From positions 24,118,001-24,182,000 of the forward strand of contig JBHGNT010000002.1 of NCBI GenBank assembly GCA_043228905.1: DNA of 64,000 nt. Reading direction: 5' to 3'. The stretch is from Azolla caroliniana. Lineage: Eukaryota; Plantae; Polypodiophyta. Shown here one piece after another: positions 6,381 to 64,000 of the stretch (position 1 is the stretch's first letter; each line of letters opens with the position of its first letter). The notes beneath the pieces are model-generated. The model ran no database searches, was not told where the DNA came from, and worked only from the letters and a program-made list of their open reading frames with translations. The translations under genes and the position numbers were made by a program.

Positions 6381-8053
6381 TTTGATATGGATTTTAACAT
6401 TTTTGCATACTAAGAAATGTTGCTCGATCTGACATTGTTTTAAGAACATTGCAATGTGTGGTGGATCATATACATCCAACCTTCTAAAGTGAGTATACTA
6501 GTCTAAGACCAAGTATAACAAAGCACTGGAAAGAGAAAAGAGAATTATAGAAAAGGGTTATTCAATCAATAAGAGAAAATTGTATTTTGTATTAAAGAGG
6601 AAATATTACGTTGGGGGCGTCCCCCTAATTTCCAGAAACTAGCCCCTTCTTCTCTGTGCACACAACATACTTAAATACCCATGGACTCAACTATTTCACC
6701 ACCAATTTCTCTACCTACTTGACCACTAATTCCTCTAGCTACTTGACCGCTAATTTCTCTAGTTACTCCCAACCAATCTTCCCCTAATTTCTCTAATTCT
6801 AACTACTCCATAGTTACATAACACTCTCCCACGAGGCGAAGAGTTTCGTCCTCGAAACTAAAACACTAGTACAATAACATGACCTGCTAAATCCATAAGT
6901 AAATGAAAAAACGGAAAGAAGGACAATGGAAAATGTGGTTTTACCATACTAATATAGTAGGCAATGTCTAAACCCTTGCCATTGTAGCACTAATTAGAGC
7001 TAGGGTACCCGTACAAGAATGAGGGATCCGAACGAAACAAACTTTCTTCAGAGATCCATGTGGCTTCTGTAAGTTGTCGCCCTTTCCATTTGATCAAAAA
7101 TTTCGTGTTCCATTGCGCACTTGTTGTTTTAAGATTGCTTCAGGTTCTTCCGCTTCCTCACTTAGGTTAGTCTTCCAACTCCAGTGTTTATTTGCATGAA
7201 ATCTCTTCAGCAAACTTACACGAAATGTATCATGCACCTATGTTGACGGAACTAGGTAATTGTCGGTTGTAAGTATCTCCATTAAAACTTTGTTGAACTT
7301 CATTGTTATCCATGGGACAAAAGGGATATAGTGTGAAATTAATCTAAGGATACGGGGAGGAAAAGTAGGTGGAGAACGACAACCGGGAAGGAGGAAGGTA
7401 ACGAAATACGAGCAATCGAGAATGAAGGTTGAGAAGAAAGGAGTAACTGAAGCGCGCCAAACAGGAAGGGAAACTATATAACAAGAAGGAGAATCAGAAG
7501 GAAGAGGGGGGAGAATGCAAAGAAGATATACCTTGTCTAGCGAGATTTATTGTTTTCTTGAGTATATGAGAATAGAACTCCGGTTGTGAGCCGTGTAACT
7601 CTTGTACCTGAATACATTTATATAACTTGTGGGCCTAATCTGTTTGCACAATCTATCTGTGTTATTCGAACTAGCTATCATAATTCTTTGGTGCAATTTA
7701 CTAGGCCAATTGTGGCTTACAGTTTTTTTTCCGTAATTAACTATCCGCGCAAGCTAAGGGATTCCTGTCCACCACTACGTACCACAACCTCTTGACCCGA
7801 TTAGCTTAAGAATAATCGGAGGTGTTATCTCGAAGTAGAGACAACACAATTCAGCTTAGGCAACACAATGAACAATGTAGGTGGAAACCCCAGCCGCCAT
7901 TACGACGCCCAATTGCACCACATGTTTTCTCGGCTACCTTCCCGCCGCGTCGAGCGAGTTGAGGAAACTGCCGACTCCGCGCTGACACAACAATCATTGT
8001 CGGAGCCCCAGGAGTCGCACTACTCGCAAATAGCGCCCCCTGACACACAATCG
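6378..8053 (+). repeat. ~1.7 kb segmental duplicate, inverted relative to 14116-15786
   Basis: Continuous reverse-complement match, e.g. 6386 TATGGATTTTAACATTTTTGCATAC vs 15755-15779. Confidence 0.93.
6560..7303 (-). mobile_element. Chromovirus 3' remnant (integrase tail, chromodomain, 3' LTR piece)
   Basis: Reverse copy of 14888-15600; VHDTFRVSLLKRF...EPEAIL...FLIKWKG...EATW; TTTCGAGGACGAAA hairpin typical of chromovirus 3' ends. Boundaries approximate. Confidence 0.7.
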
Positions 8054-14115: not shown

Positions 14116-14887
14116 CGACTGTGTGTTAGGGGGGTGCTATTTGCGAGTGGTGCGACTCCTGGGGCTCTGACAGTGATTGTTGTGTCAGCGCGGAGTCGGC
14201 AGTTTCCTCGATTGGCTCGGGGCGTCGGGAAGGTAGCCGAGAGAACGCATGGTGCAATTGGGCGCCGAAATGGCGGCTGGGGTTTCCACCTACATCGTTC
14301 GTTGTGTTTCCCAACGTGAACTGGGCGTGCCAAATTGTGTTGTCTCTACTTCGAGAAAACACCTTCGATTATTCTTAAGCTAATCGGGTCAAGAGGTTGT
14401 GGTACGTAGTGGTGGACAGGAATCCCCGAGCTTGTACGGATAGTTACTTACGGAAATAAAAACCGTAAGCCACAATCAACCTAGTAAATTGCACTAAAGA
14501 TCTGTGATAGCTAGTTCCAATAACACATATAGATTGTGCGAACAGATTAGGCCCACAAGGAAAAGTTATATTAATGTATTCAGGTACAAGAGCTACACAG
14601 CTCACGACCGGAGTTCTATTCTCATATACTCAGGAAAACAGTAAATCTCACTAGAGAAGGTATATCTTCTACGCATTCTCCCCCCTCTTCCTTCTGATTC
14701 TCCTTCTTGTTATATAGCTTCCCTTCCTATTCGGCGTGCTTCAGCTACTCCTTTATTCTCGGCCTTCATTCTCCGTTGCTCGTATTTCGTTACCTTTCTC
14801 CTTCCCGGTTGTCGTTCTCCACCTACTTTTCCTCCCCGTATCCTTAGATTAATTTCACACTATATCCCTTTTGTCCCACGGATAACA
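14116..14887 (-). mobile_element. Second copy of the older gypsy 5' LTR (14338-14887) with tRNA-Arg PBS (14321-14332) and gag 5' part
   Basis: Reverse copy of 7304-8053; retains TGGCACGCCCAG 5 nt after the LTR. Confidence 0.82.
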
Positions 14888-30804: not shown

Positions 30805-30877
30805 TCCACCCCCACCTAACCGCGCATCCACCAGCATGCGCCAAATCGAGTTGGGACGGAGAAAACCGGTCCAGCCT

Positions 30878-34237: not shown

Positions 34238-34338
34238 ACACCCTCCATTGTCGGAGAAGCAAAATCCCCTACCTATCGTACAGTCGTGGGGTCTTTTCCG
34301 AGTGTCCGGGCTGTCTCGGCCCCACGCCTTGGCAGCCC

Positions 34339-36555: not shown

Positions 36556-37159
36556 CGGGGGTCCTGTACCGAAGAGTAAGAGAGAAAGAGAAGAGACCCA
36601 CTACGTGCGAGCATAGATTCACAGGGACACGGCCCTGCGACGTAAAGACGCGAATGGGACATCGACACAGAAAGACACAAAAGTATGTATGTATTGACAA
36701 GACAAACAACAAGAACACGAAGACAACAAACACGAAGTCGGTTACAACCGAACAGGCCGGCGAACAGATGCCGATACTTGCTCGTAAACGCACAGAGGGG
36801 AAAGAGTAGGTTGGAGGTGCTGCCGGAAGCACTCGGGCATTCCTCAGAGCAGAGAGAGCCTCCCGAAACCTGCACTTAAGGAAGCTATGGTGTTTGCAAC
36901 CAGAAAGAGAGAGAGATAGAGAGAGAAGCCTTCGCACGTAACCCGACAGCACTTCGTCCTCGACTCTCCGCGATCCCCTCCTCTTTCGCGTCTCCCTCCT
37001 TTTATAGGCAGGGAAGGAGCCATTTTCCCCTTTACTTCCTACCTACCGAATCTGCCCGCCTAGGATCTCCTATGTACAACATAAGGCGCACGTGCATGAA
37101 GAGCCGGTTCCTACGCTCTGGTGCACCGATTCCGCTTGTGGACGGTTTTTTTCACGACA
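36513..37159 (-). repeat. 5' LTR of copy B
   Basis: Followed on the minus strand by TATT-TGGTGAACCCAACGTGAA. Confidence 0.95.
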
Positions 37160-42744: not shown

Positions 42745-43163
42745 TGTTATTCTCTAGCCGGACAAGGCCTAACACAAGGTGTCACGGAGACACTTCACCA
42801 AAGGGTGATTACGGCATAGGATTAAGATTCAACGATTACACCGACTTACATAGGTTACACGATTAGAATGCTTCGGTTAATTACACGCGTAAGATATAAC
42901 AGTAATTACAGAACGGAAATCAAGACAGAAGTATAAACAACATAAGCTCTATTAATTATCCGCTGCGATTACAATGGGGTCCGGGCCTTTAAATAGGTTT
43001 CCGGCCCGTAGTACAAAACGGTGCCTCTCGCACCTATTCGGGATCCGTCCGGATCTGGAACGGCATACCGTTTCCAGTCCGTCCGTCCACACTATGCTCA
43101 TTTACAACCATATCTAATTAATTCCTTCACTCCGTATTTTGGACTCCTTGCCGGCCGGTAACA
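42745..43163 (-). repeat. 3' LTR
   Basis: TGTTA...TAACA; TATA-like CCTATTTAAAGG on the minus strand. Confidence 0.95.
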
Positions 43164-43165
43164 CA

Positions 43166-43203
43166 TGGCACGCCCGTGGGACAGTACCTTGTACGTCGAA
43201 CCC
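43166..43203 (-). other. tRNA-Arg 3'-end-like sequence at the PPT position
   Basis: GGGTTCGA-cgtacaaggtact-GTCCCACGGGCGTGCCA-tg-LTR; homolog at 53136-53175. Confidence 0.75.
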
Positions 43204-43215
43204 TTCTCGGCCCCT

Positions 43216-46215
43216 TCATTGTTCACCCAAATTGTCCAAATTACTTTGTTCAAGAATTTCCACTTGTTCTTCCGGTTGTGGTTGTTGCGGCTGTGCTTGC
43301 TGCTGCTGCTGTGGTTGCGGTTGGGACTGAGGCTGCTCCGGCTGCTCTGCTTGCTGCTGCTGCTCTGTTTGTTTCGCTGACTCCGGCTGCTCCGTTTGTC
43401 TCTCTGGCTCCGGCATCTCCGTTTGACTGCTTCCGGTCCGGTCTCCTTCCACTAAGGGTTCCTCATCACTGAGGTTGACCGTAACTGGTTATCGTTCTTT
43501 CTCTCCCCGGATCCGGGACCTCTCGTAGCTTTCAAACTGGATCTGCGCCTCCAGCCTGTCGTCGTCCAGCTGAGCTACAAGTTGCCGGACTTGCTCTAGT
43601 TGGTCCTTTGCCAAGGCTTGAAAGTCTTCGGCCAGCTCATCTCTTATGCCGGTGAAATCTTCAGAATTCAGCATATAGCAATCATCTCCCTCCTTCCGCC
43701 GGTTCTCTACGTCGGCCCGGAGCAATTGGAGTTCCGCCGCGTTCGTGGCCCACTTGGTCCACCATTTGACGGAACCGTTGTCAATCAAGCTCTTGGTCTG
43801 GTTCAACCAGGCCCGCATTATATCCTGGATGCGACTTGCTCCCATTTGCGCTCTGCTTTCCACCACTTGTCGCTCCTCCTTCAACTGCTTGATGAGGTTT
43901 GCCGTATCCTCCGCCTGCTCTCTGTAGCGCGTCAGCTGCCCTTGATATGTCGTTTGCAGCCTCTGCAGTACCTCCGCCGCTCTTTCTTTTTCCGCCTGCT
44001 GTTGCCTGAGGAGCTCTGTCCGAACCTTCTCCGCCTCTTCCAACCGTCTTCTGTTTTCCGCTTGTTCCTTGGCGAATGCGGTTGCGGTCCGATCAACTGC
44101 TTGCCGGAGCTCATCCGTCCGTTCCTTGTGCTCCGTTTGCAACCGTTTATACTCCCGGTGCAATTGCTCAAATTCCTCCGTTTTTTGTTTGAGCTTGCCG
44201 TTGATCTGGCGATGGTTCCGGTCCTCCCGGTCCTTTACCTGCCGGAGTTCCTCTTTCAGGCGCTCTACTTCTGTTTCGGCGTTCCTCCGGAGCCTCTCCT
44301 TCTCTTGCAGCATTTTCTCCTTCTCCTCCTTGAGCCGGTCGTACGCTTGGTGGCCTTTCCGTAAGCTCTCCTCGGCCCGGCGTAGATTCTCAGCAGTCTT
44401 TTTGAGTTCTGCCTCCGCTGCCGTCTTCAATTCTCTTTCGCGGCTCCTCAGCGCTTCTTGGGCAGCTAGCTCATCCTTTAAATCCGCAAGCTCTTGGGCT
44501 TGTGCCGCATTTCTCTCCGGAACGGTTTCCGTTGCCGGGGTCTGATTGCTATGTGCAGGTTGATTTGACACTTTATTCTGTACATTGCCCGGAGTCACCG
44601 GTGCTTGGACTTGTGTTGTCAAAGCGAATTGAGCCATTTCCCTTGTGACCCTGTCCAAGTCTTGTTCAAGGCTCCGGATTCTGGACCGGGCCGTCTCTAG
44701 ATCTACGGTTGTGACGAGCAACCGTTCCTGGTGCGCTCTCTCTTCCGCCTCTATATACTCGACCGCTCCGGCGATTTGCTCGCCTACCCACCGTAGCCAC
44801 ATGCTACTGGTGCCTTGTTGCTGTACTGGTCGGGTCGGCTCATTCCCTGTGGAATTGTCTGGCCTGAGTGCCTGCATATGCCGTTCTGGTTCTACTCCTT
44901 GGCCGCCGTGTGCTCTGGCTGGGCTCGCCGGCTGTTGAGTTCCGGTTCTCGCCGTCTCCGGAGCCGTTGGACTGACTTCTTCTATAGAAGTCAACAAGAC
45001 CGGTTCCCTACGCACCGGTTCCGGTTCTTCCCTTGTGGTTTGCTCAGGTTGAGTTGGGGGCGTTTCTGCCTCTCGCGGCTACGACCGTTCCCCTCCTGTC
45101 TCGGCGGCCCTACTTCTTGACCGTCGTTGGAGGTGCTCTTCTGGCTCCTCCGTTTCCTCTTCCTGTGTCACGGCATGTTTCTGTGCCGTCAAGGGTTCTG
45201 GTTCCTTCTGTCCCGGTCTCCGTAAGGTTATCTTGACGGGTCGGACCGGTGACACCTCCTCCGGTTCTGGGACCCGTTTCTTCCCTTTCGTCGCCTTCGA
45301 CGCCAGCAGCTGCTGTCGTTTGGACGCCGGCTTCGAGGTGCTTCCTTCCGATACTCTTGGCCGCTTCTTTGGCTGAACGGTCTCGACCGGCGGCACGAGC
45401 AATGTTATCCACTGAGCGACGGCATGCCACAGCTTCCGGCCCTCCTTGCCGTCCTTTCCTCGTACCATGTCGATTGCCACGCACAAACCGTCTGCAATCA
45501 ACACCGGCCAATCCACCTTGGTCCCTTCATAGGTGGCTATGATCATCCCTGCCCGATTTTTTGGCATGACAGGGGGTCGGGGGTACACGTGGCCGTACTC
45601 ATGGAGCACTCGAGCTATCTCCCTGAACAGCGGATCTTCGCCGCCCTGCGTTCGATAGCCTTTGCCGGCAACAGAGTACTCACCGAAATATCGGGTGAGT
45701 TGCTCCGAGGTTGGATTATCAATCTGAAAAATTCCTCCCTCCGGAAGGCCTGTTAGCGCACGGATCGCTTCCTCGGTGATGACTTCCTTGTCGAGCTCCT
45801 TGATGACCTGGTCGGCTTCTCTGTGCGGTGGTGCTTCCATGATGGCCAAGAAGCCCTCCAGTCCGTGTTGCCTGAACCATTTCCTGGCCGCTTCCGACAG
45901 CGTTTGTGGTTCCATGTCTGCTTCGAGGTCGAGGAAAGATGGCGAGGTAGAGTGGTGATGAGAGTGAGGACGAGAGAGAGAGCGTTCTGAACGTGGGGGT
46001 TCTCTGCGTGCAGGTTCACGTTTGCTCAGCTTCCACTGTCTTGGTGCTTCTGTGCTTCTTGGCTCGCGAAATGAAAAGGTCTCCATGCGTTCTGCTTCTT
46101 CTTTGTGCGTTTTGGCGCCTTTTTCGAGCATGCACACGTCGTGTACCAATTTAGTATTAAGTAGCGTGGCGGCTCTTAAATGCCCACTACGTACCTTTTC
46201 GCGCCTTGCTTTCAC
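43216..46215 (-). pseudogene. Extra sense ORF downstream of pol (~999 codons, two internal stops), coiled-coil protein of unknown function
   Basis: ORFs 46215-45079, 45015-43489 and 43452-43216 share one frame, split only by TAG (45079) and TAA (43489). True start codon uncertain. Confidence 0.82.
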
Positions 46216-46238
46216 ACCCGTTCATACCTCGATTTTTA

Positions 46239-46300: not shown

Positions 46301-49300
46301 TTACACATCCGTAGGTCCCCTCGGACCCTTACCGTTTTCCTTACGGGTTGCCGTGTCTTCCTTCGCCTCTGCTACTGGTTCCCCGTCGTCTTTTTCTTCC
46401 GGACCGATACGTACCGATCCCGGTGTAGTGCCGGTGAGCTGCATAAACGGGTTCTTTGGCATCGGTCCTTTATAGGGTTTTAGTCGAAATCCGTTTACCC
46501 ACTTGCCTAGTACTTCACCGGCAAGTGTCCCTATCTGATAGGACCCGTTGTATTCCCGTGTCAGCCAATACGGGCCTGTCCATCTGAACCGGAGTTTACC
46601 CGGCATCTTGCCCATCCTCGTTTGGAATACTAGCACCGGCTTTCCGATTTCGAACATCTTCTCATTACCTTTTCGGTGACGGTCAACGAACGCTTTCCAT
46701 CGTCGTTGCTCCAGTTCCATGTGTAGGATGCTGGCCAACCGTTGCTCCTCCAGTTCGCATAGTGCTGCTAGCCGCATTTCCTCCGACTTCTTTTCATTCA
46801 GCCGTTCCCGTAGTTGGATCCGTAAGCTTGGTACCTGAAATTCCACCGGCATGACCGCTTCTAAGTCGAATGCTAACCGGAACGGCGTTGTCCGGATACT
46901 TGTTTTGTATGCCGTTTTGTACGCCCATAGCGCACTATGGAGCTTTGTGTCCCAGTCCGTCTGGTTTTCATTGACAATTTTGCGGAGAATGTTCTGCAGC
47001 GTTTTGTTGGTGGACTCTGCTAACCCGTTCGCCTATGGGTAGTACGGTGTGCTTCGTTTATGGACCACGGCATAGAACGTTGTTAAGCTTTCCACTACCT
47101 GGCCAAGGAAGTGGCCTCCTTGGTCGCTGATTAATTCAATCGGACATCCATACCGGCACCAAATGTTTTCGTACAGGAATTTTGCTGTGGATGACGCGGT
47201 GTTGTCTCTCAGGGCCTTAGCTTCCACCCATTTCGTGCAATAATCCGTTGCCACGATGACATAACGATTACCTGTTCTCATTGCCGGTGGCTTGAACGGT
47301 CCGACAAAATCCAACCCCCACTTCTGGAATGGCTCTAGTGGAAGTACCGGTTGGTGTGGCATTCGTGCTTGCTCCGTAGGCTGGCCCATTCGTTGGCATA
47401 GGTCACATTCCTTAGCATACTTGACGGCGTCTTTTAACGTCGTGGGCCACCATAAGCCGCTCTGCCATACTTTCCTCGCCGTCGCTTCCCCGACATAGTG
47501 TCCTCCGGCAACCCCACAGTGTGCTTCCCGTAAGATTACTTCTTTCTCGTTACTACGGACTGCCCGTCTCCATATTCCATCTGCTCCTTTGTGGTAGAGA
47601 GTGTCCCGTAACAGACAGAAATTGCGGCTCTGCACCGCCAGTCGTTTCCTCTCGTCCCGGTTCATTTCCTCCGGTGGCAGGCCCGTGCTTAGGAACTGGT
47701 GCATGTTTGTCAGCCATTTATCTTCTGATGCCACCGTGTCGTCCGCTGCCGTTTCCGGGGTGATACGGAATAACTCCGCGTCCGGGAATTCATCCGCTAC
47801 TCCGTCGCCTGGTTCTCCGGACTCTAACCGGCTCAGGTAGTCTGCTACGGCATGCTGGATACCGGGCCGGTGGAAAATCTCGAATTCGAACTCCTGCAAC
47901 AGCAAGGTCCAACGGGCCAACTTACCGGTCAAGGACGCCTTGGAAACTAAGTAGAGGAGCGCCGAGTGATCCACATGGAAGGAGAACTTCCTTCCCAATA
48001 GGTAGTGACGAAACTTTGTTACACTGTAGATCATGCCCAGGGCCTCCCGTTCCGTCGTTGAATAGTTCTTCTCCGCTTGGGACAGCTTCCGGCTGGCGTA
48101 ATATACCGGCCGGTACCATTTAGGCTCCGTAAGTTGCATTAAGGCGCTGCCAATAGCAATGTTGGAAGCGTCCACGAACACATGAAATTCCTTGCTCCAA
48201 TCCGGAGGCTGCACAACGGGTGCTTGCGATAAAAGTACCTTCAGGGCATTGTATGCCTTATCCTCCGTATCCGTCCATTGGAACGGTGTCCGATGTACCG
48301 CGGTGTGTAATGGTGTAGCCAAATCAGCCAAGTGACGGAGCATCCGGCTGTGCCACCGGATCTGTCCTAAGAATCGGCTTAGTGCTTTGGCCGTTTTCGG
48401 CGCCGGTGCCCCTAGTATGGCGTTTACTTTGTCCGGGTCGACCGCAATGCCCTCCTTACTTACAATGTGTCCCAGCAATATTCCACTTGAAACCCCAAAG
48501 ATGCATTTTGCTGGGTTTAAGCTTAGCCGGTATAACCTACACTTTTCAAGGCATAACCGTAGGTGCTGCAAATGGTCTTTTCCCCGGCTATAGACTGCAA
48601 AATCATCCAGGAAAACTTGCATGAAGGCAGGAATGTATTCGCCGAAGATCACCATGATGATTCGCTGGAAAGTTGCTGGTGCTGTTTTTAGGCCGAACAT
48701 CATGACTTCGGCCACAAACACCCCCCATTCGGTGACGAACGCTGTCTTCTCCTGGTCGTCGGGGTGCATCCGGATTTGATTGTATCCGCTGAAGCCGTCT
48801 AAAAAGCTATAAACGTCATGGCCGGCGACGGCATCCAGTACTCCATCCGTGAACGGAAGAGGGAATGCATCCGTAATTGTGGCGGCATTTAGTTTCCTGT
48901 AATCTACACACACACGGATTTTACCGTTCTTCTTTGGGACGACGACGATGGGGCTCAGCCACGTCGCTTTCTTTACCGGCCGGATGAAGCCCACTCTTAG
49001 GAGTTTGTCGATTTCCTCCTTCACATTGGCGGCGTAGTTGGGGTTCATTCGGTATCGTCTTTGCGCCACTGGTTTCGCGTCCTTGCCTAAGTGGATCTGA
49101 TGCTCATATAATTGAGGGTCCAGCCCTCGCATGTCTTCGTATGACCAGGCGAATACGTCGCGAAACTCCGTGAGAAGTTTGATCATCGCCGCTTTATCTT
49201 CCGGCTTCATTTCTTTGGCGATGTGTACCGGCTTTGATTCGTCCTTGCTTCCTAGGTTCACTTCGTCGAGCTGGGATGCTTTTACCCATTGGGAAACGGC

Positions 49301-52127
49301 CATTTCCCGTTCCAACGCTTCCTGTGCTTGCCGTAATTCCCGAATCGCATCTTTGTCTGGTTCGGCTTCGATGTCGTCCCGCTGCGGCAAGTATGCGGCT
49401 ACGGCTTCAGCTACGTCAATCTCGAAGAGTGGTACGATCTTCGGGTGTTCCTCCAAGTACTGGGCTTCTTCGTCATCTGCCAATCCTTCAAGCATGTTCA
49501 CACATTCCGCATACAGCGGTGTGCATTCCTTACCGTTGCTTGTCCGTGGTTGTGTCGGTACCCGGACCTTGGCTTTTCCGCGCCGGAAGGTAATCATATT
49601 TTTTCGCCAATTTTGCTTGATGTGTGCTGTTTTCAACCATGGTCTGCCCAGCAATAGTGGGTACGCGCCTTGCGCCTGTAGCTGCAGCACGACAGCCGAG
49701 ATGTGAAATGTGTGGCCTCCTATGGTGACTTCCAATTTCCGTATTAAGCCCGTCGGCCGTACAGAGCTCGTATCCGCCATCCGTAGCCAGAACGGGCATG
49801 GCTCCCATTCATGTATTCCCAAGGCATCACACGTACGGAGGCTTATTACGTTCACCCCGGAACCTCCATCGATTACGGTGCCGGGAAGTTCGTGCCCTTT
49901 GACAATAGCTGTAATCGCCGGACTACTAGCGTCCACCACCGTCGGTCCCTCCTCCGGATTCGAGAAGAGGACTGGTGCCGGTGGGGCTATACCGTGTGTC
50001 ATGACCGTTTTTAGTCCTTTTGTGAATCGCGGCACGAGCTGCAAGAGTCTTCCTAATGGTAACGTGATCTGACATTCTTGCAGTGCTTGCCATGTCTCGT
50101 TTTCTGGGTGGCTACCGTCGGCACTCCCTATGGTATTCGCCTTTTGCCGTTCCGCGTCCGCGACGTTCCTTTCATTGGCTTCCTTCACCCATTCCGTCAC
50201 CTGTTTTCGTATGGCCTCTTGTGTTTCCCATTCTTTGGCCATGCCTTTCGACCGTGTGGTTACTTGCTGTAAATCCGCCACTTCCGGAACCACCACATTA
50301 ACTGCTGGTCGTTTCTCGTAGCTCTTTACCGGGCACTGGTTACTGTAGTGGCCTTCCTGCCTGCAGTAGTAGCAGTACTCTTTACGGGTATTGCTGGATT
50401 CAGCATTGCTGGTAGCCGGAGTTGGTCCCGTAGTGAGTGGTGCGTTCTGTGCCAGTTGGCTCCTTGGGGTTCCCTGTTCCGGGTCCCTAGTGTGACCACC
50501 TTTCTTGAAATTACGTTTCTTATTATTCTTATTTTTATTTCGGTAGTCCGGTCGTGGTAGATCGTAAAATCGGCCGTAGTCCTCCTGGTGCCTTCGGTAA
50601 CCCGGGGAATGGTCTCTGTCATATTGCTCGTGTCGTCTGTTGGGCTCCCGATAACGGTCCGATCGCTCATACCGGTCGTAGTTATCACGCTGATTCCCGT
50701 ACCGGCCATCATTCTCTTGCCTGTCCCCGTACCGGACATCCTGTGCCGGTGGGTACCAGTTCATTCTTTGCCAACGATCGTCATCTTCGTCTCGGCTGCT
50801 TCTTGGCTCGATCCATCGGACGGGTGGTGCTTGTCGATTTAACAGGTTGTACTCGCACCGGTCCGTTGTATGACTCTTGGATTGACAAATCACACACTGA
50901 GTGCGCATGGTGCACTCTACTGCCGAGTGTCCGGCATTCAAGCAGATTGTGCATTGAATTGCCTGCCGGAACCGGAGATCTTCCTCGGTGGGTAACGCCC
51001 GTTGCAGTGTTCCCAGCGTAAGCCATGAGCTTGTCTTTTCCATTTCTCTGACCCGGTCAATGACCTGGTCGATGGTGCATCCTCGAAAGTCGATTACCGT
51101 ACACACCGTGCGTAACGGTTCCCGGAGTGCGTTTAAAAATATCCTCCGGGGGTGCACGGGCAAGCTGGCTATGCATTCGTTGGAAACGGATGATGAATTG
51201 GGGAATGCTTTCCCCTGCCTCCTGCCGGATCGTATAAAACAGGCCCACCATTGTCGTCTGGTAGACCTCCTTGTGGAAAAAATGCAAGAATTTTGCTTTT
51301 AATTCTGCAAAGGTTGTGATGGTCGCCGGGTCCTGCGTGCGCCGCCATCGTGTCGCCGGTCCCTCCAACGTGACTCCGAATTCCGCTATCTTCGAGCGTT
51401 CTTCTTCCTCCGGTGTCATTCGCTGGGACGTGTGATTTGCTTCCCATGTCTGCTCGAAGTCATGAACATGCGCTTCCGCGTCCGGGTCATCGCGATACTT
51501 TGAGTATTGGAACGGCATGTCGTCGTCCAGTATTAGGCCGCGGTTTAGTGGCGTTTGTTGATATCTTTCCGGTTCTTTTTCCGGTTCTTTTGCCGGTGCT
51601 TTTTCCGGTTCTTTTTCCGGCTCTTCTTCCGGTACCTTTGCCGGCTCTTTCGTTGGTGTTGGTGGCTTTGCTTCTTCCACTTCCGGTGTTGGTGGGTTGA
51701 CGGCTTCCGTTTGCGGTTCCGGATAGCCCTGGTTGAGCGGTTCCGGTTCTGGAGTCGGCACGATATCCGACCCGTCGTCTTCCGGGCCGCCGGGGGTATC
51801 GTTGCTGCTCCGGTAGTTCGTGTGCACGCTGTATCCCCCTTCGGAATCCGATTCGTAGGCTGAAAAGGCTTCTGCCTCGTTTTCTCCGCTTGCCAGCGCC
51901 TCCAGGAGGCGTTCGGTTTCTCGGAGACTACTTAGACTGCTTCCGTCGTCCTGGTCGCGAGTTTGCCGTAACCGGAGAGATTCCTCCGCGACTCTCCGGA
52001 TCTCGTTGGAGAACGAACGATCCGAGCGAATTTCCTGCGCTGCTTGCTGGAAAGTCTCACGCCGTCTTTGCCGTTCGGCGAGGCGTCGAGCTCGGTCTGT
52101 AACCAAGTCGTGCGTTGGTCTAGTCAT
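46301..52127 (-). pseudogene. gag-pol polyprotein (gag, PR, RT, RH, IN); frameshift ~51140, TAG at 47033
   Basis: CYYCRQEGHYSNQC, IDGGSGVN, RVCVDYRKLN, FLDGFSGYNQI, VFLDDF, VDASNIAIG, WGLDFVGP, YYP*ANG, RWTGPY. Confidence 0.93.
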
Positions 52128-52178
52128 CCATTACCATCGTTCGCTGCGAGAAAGCAGGAATCGTGGTCGCCAAAACTG

Positions 52179-52597
52179 TGTTATTCTCTAGCCGGACAAG
52201 GCCTAACACAAGGTGTCACGGAGACACTTCACCAAAGGGTGATTACGGCATAGGATTAAGATTCAACGATTACACCGACTTACATAGGTTACACGATTAG
52301 AATGCTTCGGTTAATTACACGCGTAAGATATAACAGTAATTACAGAACGGAAATCAAGACAGAAGTATAAACAACATAAGCTCTATTAATTATCCGCTGC
52401 GATTACAATGGGGTCCGGGCCTTTAAATAGGTTTCCGGCCCGTAGTACAAAACGGTGCCTCTCGCACCTATTCGGGATCCGTCCGGATCTGGAACGGCAT
52501 ACCGTTTCCAGTCCGTCCGTCCACACTATGCTCATTTACAACCATATCTAATTAATTCCTCCACTCCGTATTTTGGACTCCTTGCCGGCCGGTAACA
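52179..52597 (-). repeat. 5' LTR
   Basis: Matches 42745-43163. Confidence 0.95.
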
Positions 52598-53553
52598 CAG
52601 TGTGGGCAAAGGGGACAATCCATAGCTGAGTGGCTAGATTGCGTTCATGTCGTGCAATGCAAGGCCTACCGAAACTGAGCCTCTTCGTGAGGCGGCAAGG
52701 CATGTTGGAGTGGCTCACGGTGGGCTTACCACCGTACCGCGGGACAATGTGAATTCAATGATCTTGGAGATATCGACCTTCGCAGCGGTGAGACGCTACA
52801 TCGAATGGTTGGCTTGCCAAGTAAACACAAAAGAGCGGATGTGAGACTCCGCATCTAGATCATCCGTATAACAGGGATACGGCTACGGCATAGTGTCAAA
52901 GTCCGGGTCTTCTAGTAACACCAGAAAGGGGTTGAACTCGGCTTGGGTAACTTTGGGAGGGCTCAAAGGTGTGGCAAGGTCACAGCTTATGTGCGACTAT
53001 GTCAGAGGGTGCTATTTGAGAGTGGTGCAATTCCTGGGGCTCCGACAATGATTGTTGTGTGAGCAAGGAGTCAGCAGTTTCCTCGATTGGCTCGGCGTGG
53101 TGGGAAGGTATCCCTTTTGTCCCACAGATAACACTTGGCACGCTCGTGGGATAGTGCCTTCGCACATCGAACCCAAAACTCGCAAATAAATCGGAAACGA
53201 ACAGGCTGTGTTACAGTCATTTATCATCCAAAATGCCGAGGATGTCCTCGAGAGGTGGCTGTGTCGGTGCTTGAAGTGTCTCTTCTCTTGTACGCTCGGT
53301 GTTGTGCAACTTGGCTGGTGTTTCTAGCGGTTGGTTTTGGGTCTTTGTCATGGACTCCGAAATTGTTACCTTCCTCCTCCCCGTGGTATGGCTTTAGTCG
53401 AAATCCGTTCACCCATGCCTTTACGACTGCCCCTGCTAAGGTGCCGAGCTGAAATGTTCTGTTGAATTCATTGATAATCCGGAAGGCTCCCGTCCACCGA
53501 AAACAAAGTTTCAAGGGCTTCGAACCGACCCGAGCTTGTAACACGAGGACCGG
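52598..53553 (-). mobile_element. Older gypsy remnants: integrase tail, 3' UTR, tRNA-like tail, 25-bp LTR stub, gag 5' part
   Basis: 53109-53133 matches the LTR terminus at 14863-14887; 52600-53110 matches the gag remnants. Confidence 0.8.
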
Positions 53554-53980
53554 TGTCGCGTAGTTACGCGCGTGCGTGGAGAACGAGGCGGGACCACGGG
53601 GGCCTTGGACCGAGAAATAACCGAATGAGAAGAGGGGAAGGAAACTACCAATGTACTTCACACGCGCACAGACACACAGATTCACAGGACCAAGGAGTTA
53701 CAACCGGCAAGTCGGCGTGTGATAGGCTCCGACGCCTGCACACACACACACACACACACACACAGAACGCGAGATGGAGACTCTGCTGGAAGCACTCAGG
53801 CGTTCAACGGAGCAGAGTCAGCCTCCCGAAACCCTGCATAGAACGACTATGGAGAAGACAGAGGAGAAGAGCTCGGTTCCAGTCCGGCAGCACTTCGTCC
53901 TCCACAAAAACGCCCCCCTCTTTCCATACCTCTCCCTCTCCTTTAGAGCCTATGGAGAGAGGCCATTACCATCCGTCACA
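53554..53980 (-). mobile_element. Partial LTR of the Trp group, interrupted by copia
   Basis: TGTCGCGTAGTTACGCGCGTGCG resembles the reverse of 42070-42100; left flank CCGG; contains (CA)n. Confidence 0.75.
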
Positions 53981-55528: not shown

Positions 55529-56066
55529 ATGATGAAACATAGAGCAAACTCTATGTCGACCGCTACCTCAAGTAGTGCCTCCAGTTCGGAGGACGTATGG
55601 TTTGTTGAATCCAGAGCCTCAAACCATATAAAAATCCCATAAAGAATGGTTTCTCGAACTTCGAGAGCCGGAGCGACCCGGCTATGTCGAAACCGGAGAT
55701 AACACTACGCACCCGATCCGGTGTTGTGTGGTTTTTCACACACGATATGAAAACTAGTAAAATAATTATTTACGATTAGCTTAATATATGGATATGGAAA
55801 GATAGATGTGTTCAAGAGCTTCATAGCGTATTTTACTACCCATAAAACGGATAAACAAGTATCAAATTATGTGAGTGTGAAGTTTGAAGAAAAGAAAAGA
55901 AAAGACAAAACTTTGAGATATCCCACATAGATAGGACAACATTGGAACCTAGAATATATAAGGGAAACCAAAACATATTCATTTTATCAATGTGTGGAGC
56001 ATAGAATGTTCAAGGTGACTTGGGCTACATTATGTGGTGTGCACGCTTCGAGCGTACGTGCGTGTG

Positions 56067-56580
56067 CATGGCCGCGTCGACGTTTTCGAACGTACGCACG
56101 CATGGACATATTCAGATGTACGCGCGTGTGCAAGTTTCGGGCGTACGCGTGGACGTTTCAGAGGGACGCGTATGTGCGGACGAGTGCGCGGATGCGTGTG
56201 TGCGCACGCGCGCATGCGTGCACTACGGCGCGGTCGAGACTTTTGCGCATGGCCGCGTCGACGTTTTCGGACGTACGCATGCATGGACGTATTCGGATGT
56301 ATGCGCGTGTGCAAGTTTCTGGCGTACACGTGGACGTTTCAGACGGACGCGTATGTGCGGACGAGTGCGCGGATGCGTGTGTGCGCACGCGCGCATGCGT
56401 GCACTACGGCGCGGTCGAGACTCCTGCGCGTGGATGCGTACACGGTGCGGGTTGGACGCGCGCGCGTGTGGATGCGTACACTACGGCGCAGTCGGGACGC
56501 GCGCGTGCATGGATGCATACACTACTATGCGGTTGGGACTTTTGTGCGCGGACGCGTCTACGGTTTGGTTACGACGCACG
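56067..56580 (+). repeat. CpG-dense 181-bp tandem repeat and sub-repeats inside the 5' LTR
   Basis: CATGGCCGCGTCGACGTTTTCG at 56067 and 56248; long alternating purine-pyrimidine runs. Confidence 0.88.
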
Positions 56581-59356
56581 TACGGATTGTGCACGGGCTA
56601 AACTTTATGGATGATTGTGTCATTTGGTCGAATTATACGGACAATCGCATGCAACCAAAAGCCAAGGCCATGCAACTAAAAATAGAGGCCATCCAACTAA
56701 AAGTGGGCATGAAAAGTAACATTGGGGAGAAGGATCAACGAGGAGCTCGATATATGTCCCATTTTTTCCCTCCTAGTTTTTATTTTTTTCCTTCTTTCTT
56801 CTTCCCTCTCGGATTCGAGAAACAAATTATCTCACATATTGATATCAAACTCCTAGCTTTGTTTACTAGATCTTTCTGGTCAAAAATTATCTCTCGTATT
56901 CATATCGGACCACTCCTTGCATGGTTGTTGGCTCCTTTCTTTGGAAAATTAATCTCTCATTTCCATACCCAACCCATTGTAACACGATATTGAAATTATA
57001 AAGAATCGATTTTCTTTTGCAATAAACTAATGATTTGGCTCTCCCACTTGTCTTATGCTTAAAACTTGCTTTTGTTGTACATGTTGCTCTAAATCCTTCT
57101 AGTCCAGAACACCGGCGGTTCCGTCTCACGATCCGCACATAGTGACGGATTTTCACGACATAATTAAGTGGTGAACCCGACATGAAAGAGGCGGTAGGAA
57201 GGATATCAAGTGCAACAATGGCTTCAACAAGCGGAACTCAAGGAGAGGAGTTAACAAAAGGTATGGTGTCCGTAGTGGAATACATGCTGAAGGTGAGAGA
57301 TCGAGAAGCTTTAATCGACAAAATTGTTGATCGTACGATTGAGATAGCTGGACGATTTGGTGGCAAGAACATCATGGATTTTCTTGCTACCTATCGGAAC
57401 GAGATGCAACAAAGGGACGTCAACGATCTCAAACAAATTTCTAGCTTCAAACGTGTGGTGGAACCGCGGATCCACGAGCGCATCATGGAGATCCAAAGCG
57501 AGCATGCAACTTGGGCCGAGTTCGAAAAGGCGCTTCTCGCCGAATACATGCTTGAAGACACATCGCGGATGACTTGACATACGCTAATGTCTTGGATCGA
57601 GAAGAAAGGGAAGAATATGTGTGCATCTGGAGTATATGCCGAATTCGACCAGAAGTATAACCGACTTCCGAGTGTTGATCAACGAGTTCTCGATGGAGAT
57701 AAAGTCCTACTATTCCTGAAGGCAGTGGATGCGAAAGATCGGCGTGAATTGGGTAACTTTTTGGAGGATGCAACACAACCAAATGGCTTGGTAGCGGACT
57801 GGGCGGCGGTGAAGAAGGCTTGTAGCCGTCTTGATAAGCGTTGACAATGGCAAGAGGAAACTGATATGGAGAATCCACAGTTGTGGAGGAGGAAGGCACC
57901 TATAACGATTGAGTCTAACAAGCCGATCAACAATTTCGACAAGAAAGCGATGGAGGAATCTATAATCGAAGAGCTCTCCAAGAAGTTTGAAGCGGTATCG
58001 CTGGCCAACTTAGGTCGACGCGGGCCGAAGGGAAAAGAAGCGTATAGATGTGTGTAGTGCGATAGTTTCAAACACTCGCGAAGGGAGTGCACTGACTTGC
58101 AAGACACGATTCGCAAGAATGTCGTCTATTTGGACGGCAACATGATCCACTCGAGTGAGACCCGAAAGCCACTACGAGTGAACTTCGGAAGAGGCGGGCT
58201 GAAAAAGATCGTGGAAGAGGAAGATGCAAGGCATGTGGAAGCCATGCACTACGCCGCATCGGCAGGAATACGAGTCGGAAGAGAGAATCTAAAGACGATC
58301 AAGCCGGGAGTTGGGTTTTGGCCAATGGTATTCGAGTGTGAAAAGAAAGGAAAAATAGATTTGGAGGATCTCAAACATGTTGATCGGAATGTGCGACGAG
58401 TAACCGGATGGTCTGATCCAGTCGACGATAACACAAGCTTTACGGAGGTTGTGTGTGACAACTATGAGGCTCTTATCAAAGAGAAGAGGAAAAAAACCGG
58501 TGAAGAAGATGGCACCTCAAAGCATCACAATACAAGGAATGCAGGGAAAGAAGGACAATCCCAACCTATGCCACGAAAAGAGATAGGAGAAACAAGCATG
58601 AAGCTCGGTGGATCGAGCCAACCTTCTCAGATGGAAGTCGATGAATCTGTGAAGAAAGGAAAGGAACGAGTGGCGCCGACTTACAAGCTAAGGTCGGACA
58701 TAGAACAAACAACCAACTTGCAGAAGGTCCTTGAGGAGAAGGTTTTAGACAGTCATGTCGACCTTATTTTGAGAGAGCTACTTGGGATCGCTAAGAAGGA
58801 GTTCCACGATACTATCGTGGACTTGATTAAGTGGAACAAGTGCCATAACCATGGCAAGATCCGAAGAGGAGGAGGAAGAAGAAGCGATGGCGGACAACCA
58901 TTACTCTCGGCCTCATTGGGCAAGAGAGACAATGGAGACGCCGGTGAAGATCGGAGAGAAGGAGACCGTGGTAGCCTTGATTGACCATGGTTCAGAGATC
59001 AACCTCATGTCGACTGAATTCTACAAGAAAGGAAGATGGTCGATCAACACAAACCACGGATGGAAGATACGAGCGGCAACGAAGGTCACGAAAGACTTGT
59101 ACGGAGCTTGCCCCAATGTTAAAGTCACAATCGGAGATGTGGAGATGGATCAACACTTCTTCGTGCAAGACTCGGCTTCACATCCCGTCATCCTAGGACA
59201 ACCATATATCACGTCGTCCCGGATGGAGACTAAGGTGTTCGATAATGGAGCGGCCTTCGCGCGAGTCAAGAGCCTTGACAATCAAAGATCTATTCAATTC
59301 CTTACGGTGCGGGCTAATCACGAAAGGAACCGAGATAGCCTTGGAGGCGAGTCCTC

Positions 59357-59421
59357 GGATTTTTAGAGCGGACTATTGAAGCGTAGGGCACAAATAGTCT
59401 GAGCAATCATAAGTCCCCACG
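59357..59421 (+). promoter_or_regulatory. Predicted -1 ribosomal frameshift signal (G GAU UUU + H-type pseudoknot)
   Basis: Conserved at 3494-3559 (-) and 34285-34351 (-); pol is in the -1 frame. Confidence 0.75.
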
Positions 59422-62400
59422 AGGAAGTGAAATAAGTGGATCGCAAGGAGAAGCAACATGTGTGACACCTAGTGGCGCATGTAAACTAACACTACTCAAC
59501 AAGAAGGACAAGCGTCAGATACAAGACTTCGAGAAGATGATGAAAGAAGAAAGCATAATCGAAGAAGAAGAATTCGTGTCTCATATTCTAGAGGAAGCCT
59601 CATTTAACGACACCATCGGTGAAATCGAGGAAGTCGTGGAATTGAGCTACCCTCACGATCAAAATGTGATTTCGGTTAACTCCGTTAACATGTACGCTAT
59701 CATCGATGAATATCATCGAGGCATCTTGATGGAGGAAGCTGAAGTCAACACAAAATATAAAACGGTGGATAAGAAGATCAAGCCAGTTGAGGATCCGCTA
59801 CCGGAAGATAGCTGGCAGAAGATGAAAGAAGTTGCCAATGATCCGAGCTTAAGGGATCCAAAGGCAATAGGTCATGTCTTCACCAAAGAGACGAAAGGAA
59901 AGCTACAAGTTGGAAGGGAAGATTTCCTTCTCCCCGAAGAGGAGAGAATGTTCCGCGGAATGCTTGAGAGACATGGGAAAGCCTTTGCCTTCTCTCCACA
60001 AGAGATCGGATGTGCCGACCCGAAGATGATAGAGCCGATGGGGATTTTTACGGTGCCGCATGTACCTTGGAACCTCAAGCCGATACCTGTTCCAAGAGCT
60101 CACATTCCAAAGTTGATTGAGCTTCTAAAGGAAAAGGTTACGATGGGAATTCTTGAGCCATCCAATGCTCCCTACTCTAATAGATGGTTTACGGTGCTGA
60201 AGAAGAACGGGTCCTTACGCTTTATACAAGATCTCCAACCCGTCAACAAGGTGACGATCCAAAATGCCAGAATTGGTCCAAGCGTGGATGAATTTGCCAA
60301 AACCTTCACGGGAAGATCGATCTATTCCATTGGTGATCTCTACTCGGGTTATGATCAATTTCAATTGTCCGTCGATAGTAGAGATATAACGACAATGAGG
60401 ACGCCGATCGGGTTGGTAAGGATGTGCACCTTACCCCAAGGTGCGACAAATTCCGTAGTCCACATGGTGAATGCCATGAACAAAGTGTTGAGGGATTGTA
60501 TCCCTGATATCACAATGCCCTTCTTAGACGACATTCCAATCAAAGGATGCTTGGTGGAAGAAAAAGGATGCTTGGTGGAAGATTCGTCATCGATCATATA
60601 AAGGATAGCGAGAAGGTGTTGCAAAAACTTGAGGATGCGAATCTCACGTTTTCGGGAGAGAAGTCTGCATTCGGTCAACCAGAAATATTGGTAGTAGGAC
60701 ACTTATGTGGGTCTTATGGCCGGAAGCCATCTCCATCCAAGGTGAATGCTATTCAAGAGATGAAAGAAGAATGTGTGTCTCAAACGGAGGTGCGAAGATT
60801 CTTGGGAGCATGTGCATTCTATCACATATGGATTCCACATTATGCCCATATCGCTGAACCATTGTATGGACTATTAAAGAAAAGGAAGAAGTTCGAATGG
60901 GAAGATGAGCATACCTAGGCGATTCGAAAGCTAAAGAAACTATTATTGGAAGCTCCAGCACTGCGCAAAGCCGACTACACCATGGTACCCCGATATATGT
61001 GACGGTGGATACGAGCCCAACCGGAATTGGATGGGTGATAAACCAAGAAGACAAAGAAAAGAATCGGTATGCAATCCGATTCGGTGCGAAGGTGTTAACC
61101 GAAAGACAAAGGAAGTATGCTCAAGTAAAGAGAGAGCTATGGGGAATAGTATCCGCGGTTAAAACCGACCGTGACTACCTTATAGGAACAGAGGTCATAA
61201 TCGAAACCGACTGTCTACCTATTCTCGGAATGATATCCGGTTGTGCTACATCGGATATTGCTATGCTACGATGGATTGCCTATATCAAGTCCCTCAACCC
61301 CGAGATTCGGCATATAAATGGGAAGCATAATGTGGTGGCCGATATGTTGTCAAGGGCAAGGTATCAGGGTGAAGAAGATTTGCACTCCGACGAAGAGGAT
61401 GTTGGCCTAAACTTCTTTACGGTTTCTTGTGCTTGGGTGCTAACAGTGTTCAAAGAAGAAGATTATGAGGGTGAATTCATCGAAATTGGCAAATACTTAA
61501 CCTCTCTTACAAAAGATGAATCATCGTCAAAGGAAGACTTCTACCGAATTAGGAAGAAGGCCTACAAGTTCTTCCTCAAAGAAGGACATCTATGGAAGTT
61601 TCCGAAGAAGAAGAATGGAACTCCACTTCGAGTGGTGTGCAAGAAACAGGATCAACAAACACTAATTGCTGAATTTCATGATAGTGTGTGGGGCAGGTCA
61701 TCATGGTATATGGGCAACATTTGCAAAGCTCAAGGAGAAGTATTGGTGGTCGGGTGTTTACAAAGATGTAGCAAGCTATGTTGAAACATGTGAGCAATGC
61801 CAATTATACTCGAATATTCAACATAGGGATGAACTTCATCCAACATATCCATTATCAATGCACTATAAGTGGTTGGTAGATATAGTGGTTATGCCAATGG
61901 GATTGGGGCAAATGAAATATCTCGTGCTATCAAGAGAGGATCTCACCAACCAAGTAGAAGGACGGGCACTAAGGAATAAAACAACTTCGGCAGTTTGTAG
62001 GTTTCTCCTTGAAGATGTTATTTGTCGATACGGATGTGTCGGCAAAATAGTGGCCGATAGAGGAGAATTAGATGCGAATGAAGCTAAAGAGTTCTTTTCA
62101 AGAATAGGCGTCAAATTATCGCTCACCATGGCATACAACCCGGACGCAAATGGGAAGGTAGAACGAGGACATAGTCCAATTGTAAAAGCTTTAGCAAAGT
62201 CTTGCGATGGCAAAATGGGAAATTGGCCACGATTACTACCTTATGCATTGTGGGCAGATAGAACTACACATAGCACGACTACGGGATATATGCCCGCCGA
62301 ACTCATATTAGGACAAAAACCAATAATGCCTATTAAGCAAAGTGTTGCTTCATGGACGTCTTTGCCATTGCAAGAGGAAATGAGTCAGGAAGACTTGCTA

Positions 62401-64000
62401 GCCACGAGGATTCAACAATTAGAACGAAGGTCCGAAGATGTCGAGTTGGCAATAGAATGGTTGTGCCAAGCTCGATTGAAGAACAAGGAGAATTTTGATA
62501 GAAAGCATCGTCTTCGACAAAGAAAAATTGAAGAAGGAGATTGGGTTCTTGTCTATGATAGTAATCTCGATAATCAATATAGCACTACTCGAAAGTTTGC
62601 AAAACGATGTTTTGGCCCGTATATGGTCAAGAAAATAGAAAGCAATGCAACCTATTTTTTAGCGAAGTTAGATGGAACTCGACTTGCTTTGCCAATAGCA
62701 GGGAAGAGGATCAAGATCTTTAAGAGAAGAGAAGCCCCAAATCTTGAGATCAAAGATCTAGATGATGTATCCTCGAACATCGAGGTTGAAGAAGAGTAAT
62801 TAAAAAAGAGGAACCTCACCACAATTGGTACATACCGGTGGATGTGCAGGTTTGGTGGGGGTGAATGTCGTGTGGTTTTTCACACACGATATGAAAACTA
62901 GTAAAATAATTATTTACAGTTAGCTTAATATATGGATATGGAAAGATAGATGTGTTCAAGAGTTTCATAGAGTATTTTACTACGCATAAAACAGATAAAC
63001 AAGTATCAAGTTATGTGAGTGTGAAGTTTGAAGAAAAGAAAAGAAAAGACAAAACTGTGAGATATCCCACATAGATAGGACAACATTGGAACCCAGAATA
63101 TATAAGGGAAACCAAAACATATTCACTCTATCAATGTGTGGAGCATAGAATGTTCAAGGTGACTTGGGCTACATTATGTGGTCTGCACGCTTTAGGCATA
63201 CGCGCGTGTGCATGGCCGCATCGACGTTTTCGGACGTACGCGCGGACAGACGTCTTCGGATATACGCGCACGTGCAAGTTTTAGGCGTACGCGTGGACGT
63301 TTTGGACGGACGCGTGTGTGCGCACGCGTGGATGCGTACACTACTACGCTGTTGGGACTTTTGCGCGCGGACGCATCTACGGTTTGGTTGCAACGCACAT
63401 ACGAATTGCGCACGGGCTAAACTTTATGGATGAGTGTGTCATTTGGCCGAATTATACGGACAATCACATGCAACCAAAAGCCAAGGCCATGCAAGTAAAA
63501 ATAGAGGCCATCCAACTAAAAGTGGGCATGAAAAGTAACATTGGGGAGGAGGATCAACGAGGAGCTCGATATATGTCCCATTTTTTCCCTCCTAGTTTTT
63601 TTTTTCCCTTCTTTCTTCTTCCCTCTCGGATTCGAGAAACAAATTATCTCACATATTGATATCAAACTCCTGCAATGTTCACGACACCGGCAATGTTCCG
63701 TTCGGTGAAAGAGGTAAGCAAACATACATTAAAAATGTCTTGCATGTTCCCACCATCACGAAGAATTTGGTCTCGGTCAGCCAAATGGTTGAGCAAGGGA
63801 TGCAAGTACGATTCGACCAAGAAGGGTGCTTTATCGAAAAGGAAGGCCGAATCATCGCACGCGGAAGAAGAGAGAGCCGGATGTTTATTCTCGATTCACA
63901 CGAGATGAAATCCGCCATGTTCGCAAAAAGCACGAAAGCCGACTCCAACATAGAGCTATGGCATAAGCGAATCGGCCACATCAATCTCAACAAAATCAAA

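What the first reader, a model, noticed from the sequence alone, without database searches (positions are those of the whole stretch)
53109..53175. Independent older family has the same tRNA-like tail with a covarying hairpin
Seen: next to a 25-bp stub of a different LTR (TGTTATC.., family of 7304-7846) the minus strand reads TGGGTTCGA-tGTGCgaagGCACt-ATCCCACGAGCGTGCCA-AG-[TGTTATC]. It has the same 2-nt spacing to the LTR, and the inserted stem changes GTAC/GTAC to GTGC/GCAC. The LTRs and neighbouring 3' regions of the two families are otherwise not alignable by eye, so the motif looks selected. In this family the PBS (TGGCACGCCCAG, 14321-14332) is partly complementary to the tail, so self-priming or RNA circularisation is an alternative.
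Basis: partly seen in the sequence, partly recalled or inferred. Interest (0 to 1): 0.75.

Follow-up and report, generated by a model that had tools for sequence, protein, structure and literature searches.

The report
tRNA-tail hairpin replaces retrotransposon polypurine tract
A lineage of fern jumping genes lacks the purine-rich stretch that normally starts the second DNA strand and carries at that spot a conserved copy of an arginine tRNA's tail with a small inserted hairpin, which likely lets a host tRNA start the second strand as well as the first.

Summary
The motif at 53136-53177 (minus strand) is the 3' end of an older, non-autonomous gypsy family: integrase remnant, about 75 nt, motif, 2 nt, LTR stub. 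A young relative has it at 43166-43205, before its 3' LTR. A metagenome scan gave 63 more matches in 62 loci; 61 of all 65 are followed by 2 nt and TG, none has a polypurine tract, and their LTR starts fall into 12 unalignable groups. The motif matches a real tRNA-Arg(UCU) 3' end in three blocks. The inserted hairpin covaries (4 of 6 pairs, at least 5 separate double changes). The 5' primer site changes (two types) while the tail does not, so self-pairing is not its general role. The two families are related, not independent. Best reading, untested: it replaces the polypurine tract, most likely as a site on minus-strand DNA where host tRNA-Arg primes the plus strand (0.45); a cis RNA mimic as primer is the main rival (0.3). 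Host is probably a fern. Ten paper searches found no description. The scan noted this twice before in the same genome.

The parts
53136..53177 (-). tRNA-Arg(UCU)-like 3' tail of the older family (tRNA positions about 48-76; nt 66 missing, nt 59 replaced by a hairpin), in the place of the polypurine tract
   Evidence: 25 of 27 letters match phage tRNA-Arg(TCT) L140 in three blocks
53152..53166 (-). inserted hairpin: outer pair, stem GTGC/GCAC, loop GAAG, bulged T
   Evidence: the commoner alleles at 53152 and 53166 in sequencing contigs give C-G for the outer pair
53134..53135 (-). 2-nt spacer between CCA and the LTR start
   Evidence: 61 of 65 copies have 2 nt then TG
53109..53133 (-). 25-nt stub of the older family's LTR, cut by a deletion that joins it to the leader behind the PBS (middle LTR of a likely tandem pair)
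53251..53553 (-). integrase C-terminal remnant of the older family, ending about 75 nt before the tail
   Evidence: tblastn with P0002 residues 1800-1896, 47.5% identity; second partial copy at 42261-42100
52598..53108 (-). leader and gag remnant of the older family, interrupted by the young element (target duplication cactg at 52602-52598 and 42744-42740)
43166..43205 (-). same tail in the young element (stem GTAC/GTAC), 2 nt before its 3' LTR
42745..43163 (-). 3' LTR of the young element (99.8% to its 5' LTR)
52179..52597 (-). 5' LTR of the young element; no tail before it
52162..52172 (-). PBS of the young element, TGGCGACCACG, 6 nt behind the LTR; not complementary to the tail
   Evidence: assignment to tRNA-Arg(UCG) is recalled, from no call
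46304..52130 (-). gag and pol of the young element (gag, CCHC knuckle, RT, RNase H, integrase; in-frame stop within the integrase; no second RNase H hit)
43492..46221 (-). sense extra ORF between pol and the tail (internal stop), no known family
7304..7846 (+). full 5' LTR of the older family, copy A (PBS decayed, no tail before it)
14338..14887 (-). full 5' LTR of the older family, copy B
14321..14332 (-). PBS of the older family, TGGCACGCCCAG, 5 nt behind the LTR

Best explanation
The motif is a conserved three-block copy of a tRNA-Arg(UCU) 3' end with an inserted, covarying hairpin that sits where the polypurine tract should be, and it likely works as a second primer binding site on the minus-strand DNA, so that a host tRNA-Arg would prime the plus strand. 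Shown: position, absence of a purine tract, conservation across unalignable LTR families, match to a real tRNA, covariation of the insert, independence from the 5' PBS. Inferred: after RNase H clears the RNA, the single-stranded minus DNA folds the hairpin and leaves TGGCACGCCC free next to the LTR end; tRNA-Arg(UCU) anneals by its last 10 nt and may extend into the T-arm blocks with the hairpin looped out beside position 58; RT extends from CCA; RNase H removes the tRNA; the 2-nt spacer would be the overhang that integrase trims.
For: 61 of 65 copies have CCA + 2 nt + TG; purine share of the last 15 nt is 0.53-0.60 in all 65, while two unrelated gypsy elements in the window have G-rich tracts there. 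Tail blocks match tRNA-Arg(TCT) L140 at 27/27 (L080), 25/27 and 24/27 (window copies) although eORF proteins of tail-bearing families fall to 25% identity and 43 LTR starts form 12 unalignable groups. The unpaired 10-nt end has no partner in coding elements: longest complement in the young element's RNA is 7-8 nt. The letter at tRNA position 48, outside the T-stem, is T or C in 60 of 64 copies (two large families weigh on this). Folded as DNA, L080 and L082 leave exactly the 10 nt free. Forming both hairpins out of an intact RNA:DNA hybrid costs a computed 27-40 kcal/mol in 5 of 5 tails, so the hairpin more likely acts in a free strand; the tRNA 3' part pairs with the minus strand at -49 to -57 kcal/mol with the hairpin looped out (RNA parameters as proxy).
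Against: No cDNA end, primer or RNA was observed. The tRNA used for comparison is a phage tRNA, not the host's. All copies lack tRNA nt 66, which would bulge the duplex. The outer insert pair covaries (C-G to A-T) through the letter at tRNA position 59, which therefore does not track the tRNA. The two letters at positions 49-50 depart from the tRNA in 11 of 65 and 6 of 64 copies. The search pattern fixed the tRNA-like blocks, so their invariance among the 63 matches is partly built in. Isolated tails fold no better than shuffles (z -1.23 to +1.44), and 5 of the 7 DNA folds do not leave all 10 nt free. Polypurine tracts are themselves conserved in sequence (established knowledge), so conservation alone does not prove pairing with a tRNA.
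Confidence: 0.45

Rival explanations
1. The element's own RNA tail is the plus-strand primer: a cis tRNA mimic (T-arm-like hairpin plus a 10-nt end in CCA) that survives RNase H, is cut after CCA as a tRNA primer junction would be, and is extended like a polypurine tract.
For: Sense orientation and position equal those of a PPT. PBS matches in this lineage are short, about 10-12 nt, so hairpin plus 10 nt resembles the minus-strand initiation complex. It needs no second tRNA, tolerates the missing nt 66, and explains covariation through position 59. RNA folds of L080, L082, L077 and the window copy give the T-stem plus insert.
Against: Refolding the RNA hairpin out of the RNA:DNA hybrid costs a computed 27-40 kcal/mol. 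Coding families use a different acceptor end for the minus strand, so a shape mimic need not keep the Arg(UCU) letters. Outer T-stem pairs break without compensation in 10 and 5 of 36 rows (the 3' side was fixed by the pattern). 3 of 7 RNA folds miss the structure.
Confidence: 0.3
2. The tail acts at the RNA level in another step (packaging, binding of RT or arginyl-tRNA synthetase, an RT pause, strand transfer) and plus-strand priming uses a cryptic site nearby.
For: The hairpin can form freely in genomic RNA. HIV-1 has a tRNA-related sequence in U3-R that promotes minus-strand transfer (title seen in the reference list of PMC6468702).
Against: Fixed 2-nt distance of CCA from the LTR in 61 of 65 is what a primer end predicts. 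No conserved purine run lies within 60 nt (longest 3-8 nt); non-coding families are T-rich upstream.
Confidence: 0.13
3. The tail pairs with the element's own PBS, for self-priming of the minus strand or RNA circularisation.
For: The older family and one non-autonomous family (7 junctions in 6 loci) have a PBS complementary to the last 10 nt (-21 to -23 kcal/mol).
Against: 4 loci and the young element have the same tail with PBS TGGCGACCACG, pairing at only -9.4 to -11.2 kcal/mol in the three computed. The older family's PBS runs on as ...CCCAGT, fitting a tRNA that has nt 66, which the tail lacks.
Confidence: 0.05
4. The motif is a neutral relic (captured tRNA piece or inverted PBS) spread by recombination between a few copies.
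For: All 62 loci come from one series of assemblies, probably close kin of the host; short shared motifs can spread by template switching.
Against: At least 5 separate double changes keep the hairpin while the loop varies; identity ends sharply on both sides of the motif (loose ends at 43203 and 43160, agreement about 0.5).
Confidence: 0.04

Closest known systems
PPT-primed Ty3/gypsy elements (yeast Ty3; PMC5371799, passages)
   Same: LTR-gag-pol-LTR layout, tRNA-type PBS, a signal just before the 3' LTR that would set the plus-strand start
   Different: The signal is not purine-rich; it is a structured tRNA-Arg 3' copy ending in CCA
Bipartite or extended PBS of Ty1 and Ty3 (PMC5371799, passages)
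   Same: Separate blocks that match the acceptor end and the T arm of one tRNA, split by a loop
   Different: Those are complementary to tRNA on the genomic RNA and prime the minus strand; here the RNA has the tRNA's own sense, so only the minus-strand DNA can bind tRNA
Athila / OTA non-chromoviruses, Phygy, Selgy (Neumann et al. 2019, PMC6317226: passages and supplement 5)
   Same: Non-chromovirus RT, no added RNase H hit, 5-bp TSD, extra ORF after pol, as in Athila
   Different: PBS is not of the Asp/Asn/Ala types listed for Athila (Arg assignment partly recalled); RT groups apart from the seed-plant rows in a quick tree; the word 'fern' does not occur in that paper's main text
tRNA-related sequence in HIV-1 U3-R (Piekna-Przybylska et al. 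2010; title only, in the references of PMC6468702)
   Same: tRNA-related sequence near the 3' end of an LTR retroelement
   Different: It lies inside the LTR, aids minus-strand transfer, and HIV-1 keeps its PPT (recalled)
Self-priming Tf1/Tcn1/TAR elements (PMC6317226, passages)
   Same: A standard primer is replaced by another source
   Different: They replace the minus-strand tRNA with LTR RNA; here the plus-strand signal is replaced and the tail does not track the PBS

Membership tests
Ty3/gypsy LTR retrotransposon | LTRs with TG...CA, TSD, domain order gag-RT-RH-INT | tested here: met
   Young element:
Ty3/gypsy LTR retrotransposon | Polypurine tract before the 3' LTR | tested here: not met
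   Purine share 0.53-0.60 in the last 15 nt of 65 of 65 copies; copies were selected for carrying the tail
Athila (OTA) | No archaeal-type RNase H; 5-bp TSD; extra ORF after pol | tested here: met
   No second RNase H family in Pfam scan; TSD cactg; eORF
Athila (OTA) | RT inside the Athila clade | tested here: inconclusive
   Quick tree, unfinished careful search: window RT in an 8-row group (95) apart from Pinus and angiosperm rows; no named reference elements in the set
Athila (OTA) | PBS for tRNA-Asp, Asn or Ala | tested here: inconclusive
   PBS TGGCGACCACG or TGGCACGCCC; the second matches tRNA-Arg(TCT) L140, the first is assigned to Arg(UCG) only from recall
Tat (TatI-III, Ogre, Retand) | Added archaeal-type RNase H domain | tested here: not met
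   about 110 residues between RNase H and integrase zinc domain, no hit
Phygy / Selgy | 4-bp TSD, no extra ORF, Trp or Ala PBS | tested here: not met
   5-bp TSD and long eORF
tRNA gene or Rfam family | Full cloverleaf or Rfam match | tested here: not met
   ARAGORN 0 genes in the window and in 60 of the 62 loci scanned; Rfam only a chance snoRNA match, E 4.7
Self-priming LTR elements | PBS complementary to the element's own RNA in all families | tested here: not met
Plus-strand primer signal | Plus-strand DNA starts at the site | not testable with these tools
   Needs cDNA-end mapping or an in vitro assay

The most novel reading that the evidence does not exclude
An abundant fern lineage of Athila-related LTR retrotransposons has abandoned the polypurine tract and primes both DNA strands with host tRNAs (two arginine isoacceptors in coding families, one in some non-autonomous ones), using a hairpin-split second primer binding site that exists only on the minus-strand DNA.
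Probability: 0.45. Interest if true: 0.85.

Novelty: new variant of a known kind. Interest (0 to 1): 0.72.

Why it matters
The polypurine tract is treated as the universal plus-strand primer of LTR retroelements and retroviruses, and annotation tools filter on it. A successful natural lineage with a tRNA-derived signal in its place would show a second route to plus-strand initiation, by a host tRNA or by a cis tRNA mimic. Either route bears on how RNase H chooses primers and on how priming signals evolve. The two routes make opposite, simple predictions about the RNA at the 5' end of plus-strand DNA, so the question is directly testable.

Tried and rejected
No whole genome was held, so no genome-wide census of 3' ends, with or without the tail, was possible. 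Viral contigs: no strict tail, no relative of the RT or integrase; loose patterns gave 66 prokaryote and 10 viral matches that are chance or tRNA genes, with no pol hit. A viral scan for a tRNA fitting the young PBS gave many matches that I did not analyse. Sequencing runs: no RNA holder listed. The second read-laying run gave no per-position variants, so block conservation could not be measured free of the search pattern. A relaxed search of the 62 loci found only decayed or cut copies, no new tail type. The covariance model found no third copy in the window (next hit 14 bits). One-sided changes do not tell which strand folds: they are C-to-T or G-to-A at the CTG/CAG site, likely methylation decay; the T-A outer pair of the window copy may be such decay too and was not counted as compensation. 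I first took 53544-53212 for an LTR; it is an integrase remnant. RNAalifold's alternative outer pairing (mostly G-U) has no two-sided change. Papers: ten searches (listings and abstract starts) and passages of PMC6317226, PMC11963269, PMC5371799, PMC6890710, PMC6468702 gave no description; only 40 of 82 hits were listed; the library lacks most subscription papers; Neumann's per-element table and sequence file were too large to read and may bear on PBS types and range.

Full report
Observation. The minus strand at 53175-53109 reads as reported. A second copy lies at 43203-43166. A loose pattern finds these two and nothing in 100 shuffles. No tRNA gene or Rfam family explains them.

Anatomy. The young element is a gypsy on the minus strand: 5' LTR 52597-52179, PBS TGGCGACCACG 6 nt behind it, gag, pol (RT, RNase H, integrase with an in-frame stop, no added RNase H hit), a long sense extra ORF, the tail, 2 nt, and 3' LTR 43163-42745, with a 5-bp target duplication. 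It is inserted in the older family. Upstream of the finding, 53553-53251 matches the last hundred residues of an intact relative's polyprotein, so the finding's tail lies about 75 nt behind an integrase end and before an LTR start: it is the older family's own 3' end. The upstream stretch and LTR start also align at 71-74% with tail-bearing loci L095 and L091. The 25-nt stub is joined by a deletion to the leader and gag remnant, and a second integrase piece follows at 42261-42100, so this is probably a tandem pair with a shared, damaged middle LTR (inference). The family's full 5' LTRs at 7304 and 14887 have no tail before them. The two families are homologous but their LTRs do not align. The polyphenol oxidase gene in the window has fern proteins as nearest named relatives, 55-59%, so the host is probably a fern. 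Nearest named pol relatives include Riccia and Pinus; a quick RT tree keeps the window's group apart from seed-plant rows and is not decisive.

Spread. A strict pattern found 63 matches in 62 metagenome loci, all from one series of assemblies. With the two window copies, 61 of 65 are followed by 2 nt and TG; two others have a 5-nt spacer and two a changed TG. 34 of the 62 loci carry the extra ORF's end within 900 nt upstream, in sense. The 43 LTR starts of 100 nt or more form 12 groups that do not align, and eORF identity falls to 25%. In contigs of runs that hold the window, summed depth rises to 8111 at the tail-LTR junction against 317 just upstream and about 49 for a single-copy contig; 757 contigs of one run fit the 66-nt young tail, and loose ends begin at both edges of the motif with agreement near 0.5. 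These depths are not copy numbers, but the motif is clearly an island shared by many unlike flanks. No purine tract is present, whereas two unrelated gypsy elements in the window have G-rich tracts before their 3' LTRs.

Covariation. On 36 distinct rows (2 window copies, 31 distinct strings among the matches with enough flank, 3 decayed copies), 4 of 6 pairs of the inserted helix change on both sides, 96.8% of its cells pair, and the covariation score exceeds 500 of 500 shuffles; the two measures that count pairs or types are weaker (24 and 31 of 500), and these controls ignore kinship. On an eORF tree of 35 rows four events separate: T-A to G-C, G-C to A-T at two different pairs, and C-G to A-T at the outer pair; L094/L124, not on the tree, add a fifth. 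Against this: one C-C mismatch (L091), one G-G (L090), and several one-sided changes at a likely methylation site. The T-stem shows no compensation, but the pattern fixed most of it. Isolated tails fold no better than shuffles.

Which tRNA, and the PBS. A natural tRNA-Arg(TCT) from a phage contig (L140) matches the three blocks at 27/27, 25/27 and 24/27 letters; the tail lacks nt 66 and has the hairpin at nt 59. The other match of that scan was a tRNA-Glu, so the blocks are not unique to Arg; the host's tRNA was not available. Of 32 tail-LTR junctions with 300 nt or more downstream, 11 reach a PBS: 7 (6 loci, one non-autonomous family) read TGGCACGCCC or one letter off, like the older family; 4 read TGGCGACCACG or one letter off, like the young element; 21 show none. 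These junctions come from short-read assemblies and may be collapsed LTRs, so they give family-level pairs. The tail stays the same while the PBS changes, which removes self-pairing as the general role.

Mechanism. The fixed distance of CCA from the LTR and the lack of a tract make this the likely plus-strand priming signal (about 0.75 for the two priming models together; inference). The RNA has the tRNA's own sense, so a tRNA can bind only the minus-strand DNA. I favour tRNA priming on that DNA (0.45): the free 10-nt end keeps tRNA letters with no partner in the element, position 48 stays a pyrimidine, and hairpins are costly to form inside the RNA:DNA hybrid. The cis-mimic model (0.3) needs no second tRNA and fits the missing nt 66 and the covariation through nt 59 better. 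Sequence alone does not separate them.

Known comparisons. Ty3 uses a purine tract for the plus strand and a bipartite PBS for the minus strand (PMC5371799, passages). The plant survey of Neumann et al. lists tRNA, half-tRNA and self primers for the minus strand, mentions the tract only generically, and does not mention ferns (PMC6317226, passages and supplement 5). Ten searches found no description of a tRNA-like signal in place of the tract. Two earlier AI notes on other parts of this genome reach a similar reading; they are unchecked, were read after my own tests, and are not counted as support.

Verdict. Real, selected, structured, and apparently undescribed: a new variant of the LTR priming apparatus. 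The function is inferred. Interest 0.72.

Noticed in passing
window 43492-46221 (-): Sense extra ORF of about 900 codons with an internal stop between pol and the tail; its end is present in 34 of 62 loci, down to 25% identity; no Pfam family, Atlas hits under 0.9.
   Followed up: partly
L096 (whole), window 53553-42100: Tandem units sharing an LTR: a 2,523-bp non-autonomous unit in L096, and the likely tandem pair of the older family in the window.
   Followed up: partly
L105, L108: 5-nt spacer between CCA and the LTR, whose reverse complement (CAATA) resembles the LTR-PBS spacer of the older family (CAATT): the two LTR ends look like mirror images.
   Followed up: no
window 14332-14295 (-): Behind the older family's PBS lie TGGGA and CGAAC, which could be further tRNA-complementary blocks (an extended PBS); may be chance.
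   Followed up: no
window 30160-37159 (-) and 55722-63680 (+): Two gypsy elements with a weak DUF4100 hit and G-rich tracts before the 3' LTR; the first has PBS TGGTGAACCCAACG (tRNA-Trp-like, recalled).
   Followed up: partly
window 27658-29358 (+) and 11283-13105: Polyphenol oxidase gene with an inverted second copy at 91-95%; nearest named relatives are fern proteins.
   Followed up: partly
window 6378-8053 and 14116-15786: Inverted duplication at 91% that includes the older family's LTR together with about 900 bp of flank.
   Followed up: no
L092 about 1550-1639: Short tandem duplication of the tail's 3' half plus LTR start.
   Followed up: no
window 53545-53640: Start of a very high-depth repeat (TGTCGCG... 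LTR-like; summed depth up to 470,000), also inserted at 42100.
   Followed up: no
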